64,000 bases of DNA from a bacterium (GTDB lineage: Bacteria > Margulisbacteria > Marinamargulisbacteria > GCA-2716485 > JAYNIM01): NCBI GenBank assembly GCA_038109055.1, contig JAYNIM010000007.1:10807-74806 (forward strand). Direction: 5' to 3'. Each line of letters starts with the position of its first letter. Position 1 is the first letter of the stretch. Under the pieces are notes generated by a model. It was not told the DNA's origin. It saw only the letters and a program-made list of their open reading frames with translations, and made no database searches. This document shows, one piece after another, positions 52,051 through 53,087 of the stretch. Position numbers and translations under genes: made by a program.

Positions 52051-52305
52051 CTACTTAACTACAAAAATTAAAATCAATGAAACAACCAATGCATAAATAC
52101 CTGTTGTTTCCGAAATTGCTTGACCAATAATCATTGTCTTCGTGATCAAGTTTGCCTCATCTGGACGACGCCCAATAGATTCACACGCTTTTCCACCCAC
52201 AAATCCTTCTCCAATACCAGGGCCTATCGCACCAAACCCCATCGAAATACCTGCAGCCAATAACGCTAATCCTCTAATTAATTCTTGTCCTGTAATTGCT
52301 TCCAT
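52051..52305 (-). CDS. atpE: ATP synthase subunit c, single hairpin, Na+-type signature
   Basis: GxGxGxG helix [13 protein letters not shown] loop, [19 protein letters not shown]. Confidence 0.96.
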
Positions 52306-52340
52306 ATTAATACCTCCAAAATTTACTTTTTTACTTTTTT

Positions 52341-52372
52341 TATATTTTTATATTTTTATATTTTTATATTTT
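52341..52372. repeat. Tandem repeat (TATATTTT)x4 between the two c-subunit genes
   Basis: Four exact 8-bp copies read directly, flanked by degenerate TTACTTTT copies. Confidence 0.9.
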
Positions 52373-52385
52373 TATTTTCAACACA

Positions 52386-53087
52386 TTATGCAACAAAAAT
52401 TAAAATTAAGCTAACAACCATTGCATAAATATCTGTTGTCTCTGTAATTGCCTGCCCAATAATCATTGTTCTAGTTAATAATCCCATATAATGAGGATTA
52501 CGACCAACAGAATGACTAGCATTCATAGCAACCAACCCATCCCCTATTCCAGGGCCAATCGCACCAAACCCCATCGCAACACCCGCCCCAAACAAAGCCA
52601 TCATTTTAGGCAAACCCCCTTCAGCTTGACTAAAAATTAAAAGCAAGGAAACCGTTAAAGCAAAAACGGTTGAAGTTTGCGTTACGGCTTGTCCAATAAT
52701 CATGTGAACAGTCAAAACATCACTATTTCTTGGTTGTCTACCTATCCCTTCCATCGCTGCAGCACCAGGTAACCCAGCACCAACACCGGATCCTATAGTA
52801 CCAAATCCAATAGCAATACCGGCAGCCAACAATGCAACAGCCTTAATTAAAAGCACTACGGGTGCTTGAAAAATCAATAACAACGCAACCACCAAAGAAA
52901 AAATTGCAGCAGACTCCGTAACCGCCTGAGCAATGATCATAATACGAACTAACTTTGAAGCCGCAGCAGGTTGGCGTCCCAAAGATTCAACTGCCTTCAT
53001 AGCAATCATCCCTTCTCCAATAGCAGATCCTATCGCCCCCATACCCATTGCCAATCCAGAAGCAAGTAAAGGAAACATCTGAAACAT
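52386..53087 (-). CDS. ATP synthase subunit c, triplicated (three hairpins, 6 TM)
   Basis: Three c-repeats with RQP, RQP and RNP loops and QAVTES, QAVTQT, QAITET; GGGAGGT SD. Confidence 0.93.
   Translation of the reverse strand: MFQMFPLLASGLAMGMGAIGSAIGEGMIAMKAVESLGRQPAAASKLVRIMIIAQAVTESAAIFSLVVALLLIFQAPVVLLIKAVALLAAGIAIGFGTIGSGVGAGLPGAAAMEGIGRQPRNSDVLTVHMIIGQAVTQTSTVFALTVSLLLIFSQAEGGLPKMMALFGAGVAMGFGAIGPGIGDGLVAMNASHSVGRNPHYMGLLTRTMIIGQAITETTDIYAMVVSLILIFVA

What the first reader, a model, noticed from the sequence alone, without database searches (positions are those of the whole stretch)
52051..53087. F-type ATP synthase with a hybrid rotor: single c plus a triplicated c carrying one silenced ion site
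Seen: two adjacent proteolipid genes, each with a strong SD. One is an ordinary 84-aa hairpin. The other is a 233-aa fusion of three hairpins: (1) GSAIGEG..RQP..QAVTESAAIF, (2) GSGVGAG..RQP..QAVTQTSTVF, (3) GPGIGDG..RNP..QAITETTDIY. Hairpin 2 has lost the essential Glu (CAA at 52677-52679), the inner-helix ligand (Ala) and the Tyr; this concerted loss argues against a read error. Established: Acetobacterium woodii has a mixed ring of single c plus a duplicated c1 with one dead site, and Methanocaldococcus jannaschii has a triplicated proteolipid with two sites but in an A-type enzyme. Inference: a heteromeric bacterial F-type ring in which each triple subunit adds three hairpins but at most two ions, so the ion/ATP ratio may be set or tuned by subunit stoichiometry. 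I know of no characterised single+triple F-type ring, but I could not search for one.
Basis: partly seen in the sequence, partly recalled or inferred. Interest (0 to 1): 0.85.

Follow-up and report, generated by a model that had tools for sequence, protein, structure and literature searches.

The report
Three-hairpin rotor subunit in ATP synthase
This marine bacterium's ordinary-looking ATP synthase operon encodes, beside the normal small rotor subunit, a fused triple version whose middle ion site is dead, so the rotor probably carries fewer sodium ions per turn than its size suggests.

Summary
Window 52386-53087 (-) encodes a 233-aa protein of three fused c-subunit hairpins. Window 52051-52305 (-) encodes an 84-aa single c. 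Both lie in an F-type operon (atpZ-like, atpI-like, c3, c, b, delta, alpha, gamma, beta, epsilon).

Hairpin 2 has Gln for the ion-binding Glu and Ala for the inner-helix ligand. This holds in 90 of 90 three-hairpin homologues. The c3-c pair is syntenic in all 20 loci examined in the same order and class.

The nearest named relatives are Candidatus Marinamargulisbacteria. The best sequence and fold match is the two-hairpin c1 of the Acetobacterium woodii hybrid Na+ rotor (PDB 4BEM).

The gene belongs to a wide a-c(n)-c1-b family, with n = 2 to 6, in Margulisiibacteriota, Thermodesulfobacteriota, Brocadiaceae and others.

Covariation and a modelled ring show that residues 66/67/70 of one hairpin serve the Glu of the next. 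The dead site has therefore lost four of its five side-chain ligands, spread over two hairpins.

Mixed-ring assembly, Na+ coupling and c3 copy number are inferred, not shown.

I found no paper describing an F-type c with three or more hairpins. This scan has met the family before on other DNA. I class it as a new variant of a known kind.

The parts
53536..53766 (-). atpZ-like small membrane protein (76 aa from an internal Met of the 117-aa ORF 53536..53889)
   Evidence: 32% identity over 60 aa (E 7e-07) to the 68-aa ORF at the same operon position in relative L007. That ORF matches PF09527 ATPase_gene1 (E 1.9e-08). The window protein itself has no Pfam hit.
53154..53531 (-). atpI-like membrane protein, 125 aa
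   Evidence: 39% identity (E 3e-16) to the 127-aa ORF at the same position in L007. Only a weak full-length match to PF03899 ATP-synt_I (E 0.47, profile 1-95 of 99). The name rests on position and this weak match.
52386..53087 (-). c3: fused three-hairpin c subunit, 233 aa
   Evidence: Three PF00137 stretches. AF2 model has pLDDT 96.9 and pTM 0.91, with six helices and linkers at residues 73-79 and 152-158. Best PDB match is 4bem_J, by sequence E 2e-22 and by fold TMt 0.79, rmsd 1.4 A.
52872..53078 (-). hairpin 1 of c3 (residues 4-72), live site: Glu25 (position 32) and Glu58 (position 65). Positions 66/67/70 are Ser, Ala, Phe.
52635..52850 (-). hairpin 2 of c3 (residues 80-151), dead site: Ala at position 32 and Gln137 at position 65 (codon 52677-52679). 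Positions 66/67/70 are Thr, Ser, Phe.
   Evidence: (Gln in 90 of 90)
52395..52613 (-). hairpin 3 of c3 (residues 159-231), live site: Asp at position 32 and Glu216 at position 65. Positions 66/67/70 are Thr217, Thr218, Tyr221.
   Evidence: (D.ETT.Y in 90 of 90)
52328..52375 (.). 8-bp tandem repeat (TTTTTATA x 5.9) in the 80-nt c3-c spacer
   Evidence: Spacers in relatives are about 15-80 nt. Contigs of other runs break here.
52051..52305 (-). c1: single-hairpin c subunit, 84 aa, with the complete two-carboxylate Na+-type motif (Glu33, Glu66, Thr67, Thr68, Tyr71)
   Evidence: PF00137 E 7.1e-20. Signature E.ETT.Y in 20 of 20 loci; mean pairwise identity 0.87. Motif as in F. nucleatum.
51554..52033 (-). 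subunit b
   Evidence: PF00430 E 9.1e-21
50994..51554 (-). subunit delta (OSCP)
   Evidence: PF00213 E 1.6e-16
49489..50997 (-). subunit alpha
   Evidence: PF00006, PF00306, PF02874
48633..49487 (-). subunit gamma
   Evidence: PF00231 E 1.2e-83
47201..48616 (-). subunit beta
   Evidence: PF00006, PF02874
46795..47214 (-). subunit epsilon
   Evidence: PF02823, PF00401

Best explanation
The operon encodes the organism's only rotary ATPase, an F1Fo ATP synthase. Its membrane rotor is probably a mixed ring built from two gene products.

The 84-aa single hairpin (c1) carries a complete two-carboxylate Na+-type site. The 233-aa c3 is three covalently linked hairpins whose sites are live, dead, live.

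Each ion site lies between two hairpins. Residues 32 and 65 of one hairpin meet residues 63/66/67/70 of the hairpin before it. This gives three sites per c3:
- Hairpin 1's site is completed by Thr66/Thr67/Tyr70 of whatever precedes it, either hairpin 3 of another c3 or a c1.
- The dead site has lost position 32 (Ala) and 65 (Gln) on hairpin 2, and 67 (Ala) and 70 (Phe) on hairpin 1.
- Hairpin 3's site (Asp32, Glu65) uses Thr66/Ser67 kept on the otherwise dead hairpin 2, without a Tyr.

Every junction (c3-c3, c3-c1, c1-c3, c1-c1) therefore gives a working site. No two dead sites are ever adjacent.

A ring of n c3 and m c1 has 3n+m hairpins but only 2n+m ions per turn. That lowers the ion/ATP ratio below that of a homomeric ring of equal size. 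For an 11-hairpin ring the ratio would be 3.33, 3.0 or 2.67 instead of 3.67.

Shown: gene structure, conservation, site residues, and homology to A. woodii c1. Inferred: co-assembly, Na+ as the coupling ion, and the number of c3 per ring.
For: One enzyme only. The genome holds four PF00137 hairpins, all in these two genes, and one a subunit. All F-type subunits are in the operon.

Real and under selection. c3 followed by c1 is found in 20 of 20 loci of the same order/class. Mean pairwise identity is 0.76 for the dead hairpin, against 0.75 for hairpin 1 and 0.81 for hairpin 3. Signatures are fixed: Gln65 in hairpin 2 and D.ETT.Y in hairpin 3 in 90 of 90.

Closest solved relative. A. woodii c1 matches by sequence at E 2e-22 and by fold at TMt 0.79, rmsd 1.4 A. 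Passages in papers say it sits once in a ring with nine single c subunits. In the alignment its hairpin 1 is Q.ETS.F (live) and its hairpin 2 is Q.QTT.Y (dead). The order 'live hairpin without Tyr, then dead hairpin' is the same as here.

Site geometry:
- Ser66 and Val63 come from the adjacent subunit (F. nucleatum).
- In E. hirae NtpK the ligands Leu61 and Thr64 lie before Gln110 and Glu139.
- Among 323 unique multi-hairpin proteins, 790 adjacent hairpin pairs were scored. A hairpin with Tyr70 is followed by a live hairpin in 59 of 60 pairs, against 262 of 730 without Tyr70. The reverse pairing is anti-correlated.
- The last hairpin keeps Tyr70 in 304 of 323 proteins, even when it is itself dead (78 cases). 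The first hairpin lacks Tyr in 317 of 323.

Modelled ring of 3 x c3 + 2 x c1. Score 0.73, best of 3 controls 0.00. That mark was reached by 58 of 80 solved complexes and by 2 of 110 mismatched pairs. Runs agree in at least 97% of contacts, and partner pLDDT is at least 76. In the model, hairpin 3 touches c1 through residues 217-219 and 221-222 but not Glu216. Hairpin 1 touches c1 through Glu58 but not residues 59, 60 or 63.

Na+ economy. c1 carries the F. nucleatum-type set E32, E65, T66, T67, Y70. NqrA is in the genome (84 bits). Nqr is reported for Marinamargulisbacteria (passage).
Against: No experiment or read data bear on assembly, stoichiometry or the coupling ion.

The complex prediction involves paralogues of a family with solved rings (4BEM, 1YCE). 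Its pass may come from memory, and it cannot tell mixed rings from homomeric ones.

The covariation counts are over related sequences, so the p-values overstate.

The hairpin 3 site lacks the Tyr and has Asp at position 32, a combination with no solved example. Its activity and selectivity are unknown.

The organism also has proton-pumping respiration according to the literature passage, so H+ coupling is not excluded.

In A. woodii only one fused subunit enters the ring. If the same holds here, the effect on the ion/ATP ratio is small: 10 sites on 11 hairpins.

One freshwater relative (L041) has Glu in hairpin 2.
Confidence: 0.6

Rival explanations
1. Two alternative homomeric rings. The cell builds either a c1-only ring or a c3-only ring (9, 12 or 15 hairpins with 6, 8 or 10 sites), depending on conditions. 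It switches gear rather than mixing subunits.
For: The junction analysis shows c3-c3 and c1-c1 contacts would both give complete sites. The sequence therefore does not force mixing. The two genes are separated by an 80-nt AT-rich repeat spacer in this genome.
Against: Both genes lie in one operon. No promoter or terminator signal exceeds chance: 27 promoter-like sites against 24.2 +/- 4.8 in shuffles, and 5 terminator-like sites against 5.7 +/- 2.3. The spacer is only about 15 nt in several relatives. The only characterised relative, A. woodii, mixes its subunits. Family members with 4-5 consecutive dead sites (c5, c6) could hardly form working homomeric rings, yet they keep the same gene pair.
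Confidence: 0.12
2. The enzyme is H+-coupled, or uses both ions. The polar residues are inherited from a Na+ ancestor, and the Asp32 site without Tyr binds H+.
For: The hairpin 3 site lacks Tyr70 from its neighbour and has Asp for Glu at position 32. Passages note that two-carboxylate sites can shift towards H+, as in M. acetivorans. Aerobic Marinamargulisbacteria are predicted to have a proton-pumping oxidase branch.
Against: c1 and the hairpin 1 site carry every side-chain ligand of the solved F. nucleatum Na+ site. The signature is invariant across 20 loci. The habitat is saline, judging by the labels of the runs that hold the DNA. Nqr is present.
Confidence: 0.2
3. c3 is a decaying or non-rotor paralogue. 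It could be an assembly scaffold, or a relic of tandem duplication that is not built into working enzyme.
For: One of its three sites is dead. Two loci elsewhere carry an orphan c4 gene away from any atp operon (L060, L062).
Against: The reading frame is intact in 23 of 40 relatives at 50-75% identity. The dead hairpin is as conserved as the live ones. All three cytoplasmic R-x-P loops are kept. The model is a confident six-helix ring segment. The live-site ligands are invariant.
Confidence: 0.04
4. Assembly or sequencing artefact: three c genes were wrongly joined into one frame.
For: None found.
Against: Contigs from other samples and from another study match without indels across both hairpin junctions. 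More than 100 database proteins have the same three-hairpin frame.
Confidence: 0.01

Closest known systems
Acetobacterium woodii Na+ F1Fo ATP synthase hybrid rotor: c1 (two hairpins, one site) plus nine c2/3 (PDB 4BEM)
   Same: It is an F-type operon with a fused multi-hairpin c gene next to a single c gene. The first hairpin is live and lacks Tyr70, and the next is dead with Gln for Glu (alignment). It is the best sequence match (E 2e-22) and the best fold match (TMt 0.79). The single c has Na+-type ligands.
   Different: This gene has three hairpins rather than two, and two live sites rather than one. The last hairpin is live and has Asp at position 32. Position 32 is Glu (two-carboxylate type) rather than Gln. 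The organism is an aerobic marine Margulisiibacteriota member, not an acetogen. Orthology to A. woodii c1 could not be tested by a tree, because its sequence could not be obtained.
The a-c(n)-c1-b family found here in named genomes
   Same: The gene order is the same. In the FastTree topology (support values not inspected) the first hairpins form one clade, the single c subunits another, and the last hairpins lie next to the single c. The rule that the last hairpin keeps [ST]-T..Y also holds. Named members include Desulfosarcina cetonica and D. widdelii (c4), Desulfatitalea alkaliphila (c5), Desulfacinum hydrothermale and Desulfonema magnum (c3), Ca. Termititenax (c3) and UBP3 (c2).
   Different: Those proteins have 2-6 hairpins, and live sites range from one of two to one of six. 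The Marinamargulisbacteria form is live-dead-live with Asp32 in hairpin 3. I found no paper on any member with three or more hairpins.
Methanocaldococcus jannaschii triplicated proteolipid (A-type; three hairpins). Mentioned in passages; the detail 'two sites' is recalled.
   Same: Three fused hairpins with fewer live sites than hairpins.
   Different: It belongs to an A1Ao enzyme, with no F-type a, b, delta, gamma or epsilon, and has no companion single c. It is an independent fusion. The window's hairpins match F-type c subunits best.
Fusobacterium nucleatum c11 ring with the two-carboxylate Na+ motif (PDB 3ZK1)
   Same: Glu32 plus Glu65 with Ser/Thr66, Thr67 and Tyr70.
   Different: It is a homomeric ring of single hairpins with no dead sites.
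Enterococcus hirae NtpK (V-type; four helices, one Na+ site; PDB 2BL2)
   Same: The fold is a fused double hairpin (TMt 0.82). The site is built from the Glu/Gln of the second hairpin and Thr/Leu of the first. This gives the direction of the inter-hairpin site.
   Different: It is a V-type enzyme with only 25% identity to c3, and forms a homomeric ring.

Membership tests
ATP synthase subunit c / proteolipid (Pfam PF00137) | Match to the family profile above the curated cut-off | tested here: met
   c3 scores 144.5 bits in three stretches and c1 scores 71.5 bits; the cut-off is 24.
F-type (not A/V-type or N-type) ATP synthase | Operon with F-type b, delta (OSCP), alpha, gamma, beta and epsilon in the order c-b-delta-alpha-gamma-beta-epsilon, and an F-type a subunit | tested here: met
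   PF00430, PF00213, PF00231, PF02823 and PF00006 are found in that order. PF00119 a subunit scores 162 bits. In this genome the a gene lies on another contig. In 18 of 18 named Marinamargulisbacteria loci it lies directly before c3.
A. woodii-type hybrid rotor | A fused multi-hairpin c gene with at least one hairpin lacking the carboxylate, adjacent to a single-hairpin c gene in an F-type operon | tested here: met
A. woodii-type hybrid rotor | Homology of the fused subunit to A. woodii c1 | tested here: met
   It is the best PDB hit by sequence (E 2e-22) and by fold. Orthology was not tested by phylogeny.
A. woodii-type hybrid rotor | Both polypeptides in one ring | not testable with these tools
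   The only evidence is a model: score 0.73 against a best control of 0.00. Solved like complexes exist, so the pass may come from memory.
A. woodii-type hybrid rotor | Na+ as the coupling ion | not testable with these tools
   The ligand set is complete in c1 and in the hairpin 1 site, and NqrA is present. There is no biochemical evidence.
Na+-binding c subunits (I. tartaricus / F. nucleatum motif) | Gln/Glu32, Glu65, Ser/Thr66, Thr67 and Tyr70 all present at one inter-hairpin site | tested here: met
   Met for the c1 site and for the hairpin 1 site when it is preceded by hairpin 3 or c1. Not met for the hairpin 3 site, which has Phe70 and Ser67 on hairpin 2 and Asp32. Absent at hairpin 2.
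Archaeal triplicated A-type proteolipid (M. jannaschii type) | Encoded in an A1Ao operon and related to A/V-type K subunits | tested here: not met
   The operon is F-type. The best sequence matches are F-type c subunits.

The most novel reading that the evidence does not exclude
The rotor is an adjustable gearbox. Several c3 copies and a variable number of c1 fill one ring, so the cell sets the Na+/ATP ratio anywhere between about 2.7 and 3.7 through the c3:c1 ratio. The ring also carries two chemically distinct site types: a Glu32 site with Tyr, and an Asp32 site without Tyr. These may differ in Na+/H+ preference. More widely, the c(n)+c1 family (n = 2-6) would be a general bacterial way of uncoupling ring circumference from ion number, in parallel to the V-type solution.
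Probability: 0.2. Interest if true: 0.85.

Novelty: new variant of a known kind. Interest (0 to 1): 0.7.

Why it matters
The ion/ATP ratio of an ATP synthase is usually read straight from the number of c subunits. The A. woodii hybrid ring is treated in the papers I read as the single bacterial F-type exception.

Here the same principle appears in a three-hairpin, two-site form in a widespread marine lineage. It sits inside a family of two- to six-hairpin subunits that includes cultured sulfate reducers with complete genomes.

If these subunits enter rings in more than one copy, F-type enzymes can reach low ion/ATP ratios without shrinking the ring. Bioenergetic budgets inferred from genomes would then need correcting.

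The rule that the ligands of hairpin i serve the Glu of hairpin i+1 gives a simple way to read live and dead sites from sequence.

The cultured members make the question directly testable.

Tried and rejected
Literature. Eight full-text searches found no paper describing an F-type c subunit with three or more hairpins.
- The terms covered triplicated/three hairpins/four hairpins/six transmembrane/fused c/multi-hairpin, Marinamargulisbacteria and Margulisbacteria with ATP synthase, Desulfosarcina and Desulfobacter, V-type c subunit and hybrid rotor.
- A 2026 preprint (10.64898/2026.10.01.756066, passages) names only A. woodii for mixed F-type rings.
- ProAD 2025 (PMC11738941, passages) says only in general terms that c/K variants can have two or more hairpins with or without sites.
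- The Kuenenia paper (PMC2936114, passages) reports two c genes, each with two helices, which is not a fusion.
- Matthies et al. 2014 on the A. woodii ring was not held. Details of that structure beyond the alignment and the passages are recalled.

Internal start. A Shine-Dalgarno-like box and an ATG precede hairpin 3. The Met and the motif are not conserved in relatives (read from the A1 alignment), so I dropped the idea.

Signals in the c3-c spacer. Promoter and terminator scans give nothing beyond chance.

Chimeric contig. GC content runs from 30 to 43% with no step at the operon.

Expression. One RNA-library contig of 232 nt lies on the single c gene only, and its run holds only 0.06 of the sampled words. 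This is too little to say anything about transcription or about c3.

Independent bridging of the c3-c spacer. No contig spans 52329-52383 in the runs laid.

Ring size. I did not try to predict it from the glycine motif. The 11-hairpin example is only an illustration, chosen because the solved Na+ F-type rings met have 11 hairpins.
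Full report
**1. What is in the sequence**

On the minus strand, ORF 52386..53087 encodes 233 aa and ORF 52051..52305 encodes 84 aa. Pfam PF00137 (ATP synthase subunit C) matches the long protein in three stretches (E 1.2e-42) and the short one in one stretch (E 7.1e-20). 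Both start codons are preceded by GGAGG-type ribosome-binding sites at 7-10 nt (read).

I anchored on the R-x-P loop and numbered residues as in I. tartaricus and F. nucleatum. The site signatures (32.65-66-67.70) are E.ESA.F for hairpin 1, A.QTS.F for hairpin 2, D.ETT.Y for hairpin 3 and E.ETT.Y for the single c.

**2. The operon**

Downstream of the two c genes lie b (PF00430), delta (PF00213), alpha, gamma (PF00231), beta and epsilon (PF02823). This is an F-type operon.

Upstream lie two small membrane ORFs. The 125-aa ORF is 39% identical to the ORF at the same position in relatives. It has only a weak full-length match to PF03899 ATP-synt_I (E 0.47). The 76-aa ORF is 32% identical to a relative's ORF, and that ORF matches PF09527 ATPase_gene1 (E 1.9e-08).

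**3. It is real**

- The genome holds exactly four PF00137 hairpins, all in these two genes, and one a subunit. This is therefore the only rotary ATPase.
- Contigs from other samples (X2, X3) and from another study (X4, a 95-99% strain) lie on parts of c3. They cover both hairpin junctions and the Gln codon, with no indels and no change at that codon.
- No contig bridges the c3-c spacer, where an 8-bp tandem repeat breaks the assemblies.
- Among 40 relatives of the same order or class, 23 carry a near full-length single-ORF match at 50-75% identity. One more is split by contig ends, one has a two-hairpin form and one is a fragment.
- In all 20 loci examined (the window's plus 19 relatives), c3 is followed directly by a single c.

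**4. Conservation**

One search parsed the 120 best database homologues plus the window's two proteins: 90 have three hairpins (89 database proteins plus the window's c3), 17 have four and 14 have five.

All 90 three-hairpin proteins have Gln65 in hairpin 2 and D.ETT.Y in hairpin 3. Hairpin 1 is E.ETA.F in 85 of them.

Mean pairwise identity among the 20 orthologous loci is 0.87 for c1, 0.81 for hairpin 3, 0.76 for the dead hairpin 2 and 0.75 for hairpin 1. The dead hairpin is under the same constraint as the live ones.

**5. Who carries it**

Sources name the closest homologues Candidatus Marinamargulisbacteria (62-74% identity). At phylum level, 34 of 146 genomes have a hit at E <= 1e-30, mostly in the window's own class.

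**6. A wider family**

A scan of one genome per species found 586 relatives, of which the best 80 loci were kept. I labelled their ORFs by hairpin count and by BLAST to the window's subunits.

72 of the 80 loci show the order a, c(n), c1, b. Six are cut by contig ends. Two (L060, L062) hold an orphan c4 away from any atp gene.

n ranges from 2 to 6:
- Marinamargulisbacteria: c3 (18 of 18 loci, always with a directly upstream).
- Ca. Termititenax: c3.
- UBP3: c2.
- Desulfosarcina cetonica and D. widdelii: c4.
- Desulfatitalea alkaliphila: c5.
- Desulfacinum hydrothermale and Desulfonema magnum: c3.
- One MAG: c6, 483 aa.
- Brocadiaceae, Planctomycetota and Latescibacterota MAGs: c3.

The live/dead patterns counted in these loci (L = live, d = dead) are LdL 23, LddL 16, Ldd 12, Lddd 10, Ldddd 5, LdLL 4, Ld 2, and one each of LLL, LdddL, Lddddd and LdLd.

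A search of 1.84 billion representatives gave 1584 hits at E <= 0.001 and 80 at E <= 1e-30. The best 150 are nearly all proteins of two to twelve hairpins.

A FastTree tree of 122 hairpins puts all first hairpins in one clade, all single c subunits in another, the last hairpins next to the single c, and the inner dead hairpins apart. I did not inspect support values, and the root is midpoint only. The topology suggests one origin, with later duplication of inner dead hairpins.

**7. The closest solved relative**

A. woodii c1 (4bem_J) is the best match by sequence (E 2e-22) and by fold (TMt 0.79, rmsd 1.4 A over 158 columns). No solved chain covers more than two of the three hairpins (TMq at most 0.62).

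The AF2 model of c3 is confident: pLDDT 96.9, pTM 0.91, six helices, and short linkers at residues 73-79 and 152-158.

In the alignment, A. woodii c1 reads Q.ETS.F for hairpin 1 (live) and Q.QTT.Y for hairpin 2 (dead), and its c2 reads Q.ETT.Y. Passages in two papers state that the A. woodii ring has nine single hairpins and one four-helix subunit with one site.

**8. Where the ligands belong**

In F. nucleatum, Na+ is bound by Glu32 and Glu65 of one subunit and by Ser66 and the Val63 carbonyl of the adjacent one. Tyr70 and Ser66 hydrogen-bond Glu65, and Thr67 holds a water (passages).

In E. hirae NtpK the equivalent ligands are Leu61 and Thr64 (helix 2) with Gln110 and Glu139 (helices 3 and 4) (passage). 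The neighbour that gives residues 63/66 is therefore the preceding hairpin.

Three results here agree with that direction.

- Covariation. Among 323 unique multi-hairpin proteins, 790 adjacent hairpin pairs were scored. A hairpin with Tyr70 is followed by a live hairpin in 59 of 60 pairs, against 262 of 730 when Tyr70 is absent. Ser/Thr67 shows the same trend (163 of 219 against 158 of 571). The reverse pairing is anti-correlated.
- End hairpins. The last hairpin keeps Tyr70 in 304 of 323 proteins, including 78 in which it is itself dead. The first hairpin lacks Tyr in 317 of 323.
- Modelled ring. Hairpin 3 touches the following c1 through residues 217-219 and 221-222 but not through Glu216. 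Hairpin 1 touches the preceding c1 through Glu58 but not through residues 59, 60 or 63.

These sequences are kin, so the counts overstate independence.

**9. Reading c3 with this rule**

- The hairpin 1 site (Glu32, Glu65) is completed by Thr66, Thr67 and Tyr70 of the preceding hairpin 3 or c1. That is the full F. nucleatum-type set.
- The dead site has lost positions 32 and 65 on hairpin 2, and 67 and 70 on hairpin 1. That is four of five side-chain ligands.
- The hairpin 3 site (Asp32, Glu65) uses Thr66 and Ser67 of hairpin 2, without a Tyr.

Asp at position 32 of a live, non-first hairpin always follows a hairpin without Tyr. This holds in 104 of 104 Marinamargulisbacteria-type proteins and in 4 of 4 others. 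Glu32 follows a Tyr-bearing hairpin in 47 cases and a non-Tyr hairpin in 13. The Asp32 site may therefore be a distinct site type. Its selectivity is unknown.

**10. Mechanism proposed**

I propose a mixed ring of n c3 and m c1, with 3n+m hairpins and 2n+m ions per turn. Every junction type gives a working site, and dead sites are never adjacent, so the sequence allows any c3:c1 ratio.

For an 11-hairpin ring, the size of the solved Na+ F-type rings met, the ion/ATP ratio would be:

| c3 copies | ions per ATP |
|---|---|
| 0 | 3.67 |
| 1 | 3.33 |
| 2 | 3.00 |
| 3 | 2.67 |

Eleven is not a multiple of three, which would explain why the single c is always kept. This last point is speculation.

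A model of 3 x c3 + 2 x c1 scored 0.73, against a best control of 0.00. That mark was reached by 58 of 80 solved complexes and by 2 of 110 mismatched pairs. The runs agree in at least 97% of contacts, and the partner's pLDDT is at least 76. Like complexes are solved, so the pass shows likeness. It does not show that these chains bind.

Na+ coupling is suggested by the ligand sets, by NqrA in the genome and by the Nqr reported for this lineage (passage). It is not shown.

**11. Novelty**

The principle of a fused c with a dead site beside a single c in an F-type enzyme is known from A. woodii. The three-hairpin, two-site form, the Asp32 site and the wide c2-c6 family are not in any paper I could search (section Tried and rejected).

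This scan has reported the family before on other DNA: e1-976811, e1-2102030, e1-3379647, e1-4762870 and e1-4650758. Each names A. woodii c1 as the closest known and reports finding no publication.

I class the finding as a new variant of a known kind.

Noticed in passing
G000:C1:402193-402954 (L001 1486-2349, minus strand); window 53088-53153: In this genome the a-subunit gene has left the atp operon. It lies on another contig next to serS, while the atpI-like gene sits directly before c3. In 18 of 18 named Marinamargulisbacteria loci, a lies between atpI and c3.
   Followed up: partly
window 52328-52375: An 8-bp tandem repeat (TTTTTATA x 5.9) fills the c3-c spacer. Relatives have spacers of about 15-80 nt. 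Contigs of other runs break at this repeat.
   Followed up: partly
L041 (c3 ORF; a MAG record titled Candidatus Marinamargulisbacteria, apparently from fresh water judging by the isolate name in its title): Hairpin 2 of this c3 reads V.EVS.F, so it has a Glu at the otherwise dead position. It is the only such case among the Marinamargulisbacteria-type proteins seen.
   Followed up: no
L060 5977-6954 and L062 5977-6954: These loci hold an orphan four-hairpin c gene with no a, c1 or b gene beside it.
   Followed up: partly
proteins P0132 (968 aa), P0188 (524 aa), P0250 (447 aa), and about 60 proteins of about 318 aa (for example P0144, P0147): The representative search also returned 12-, 7- and 6-hairpin proteins with every site live. 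It also returned a large four-hairpin family with the pattern Q.ETA.L / S.QTP.F / L.ETP.F / S.DTx.Y at about 30% identity. Their taxa and enzyme type were not determined.
   Followed up: no
G015:C53:10693-11136: One genome of the same class has a 163-aa two-hairpin form, instead of c3, in front of its single c.
   Followed up: no
window 57476-63946 (-): A 2156-aa ORF lies a few genes upstream of the atp operon. Its function was not examined.
   Followed up: no
whole window: GC skew is strongly negative (about -0.2 to -0.35) over most of the 64 kb. It is weaker only at 38-46 kb, where genes lie on the plus strand.
   Followed up: no
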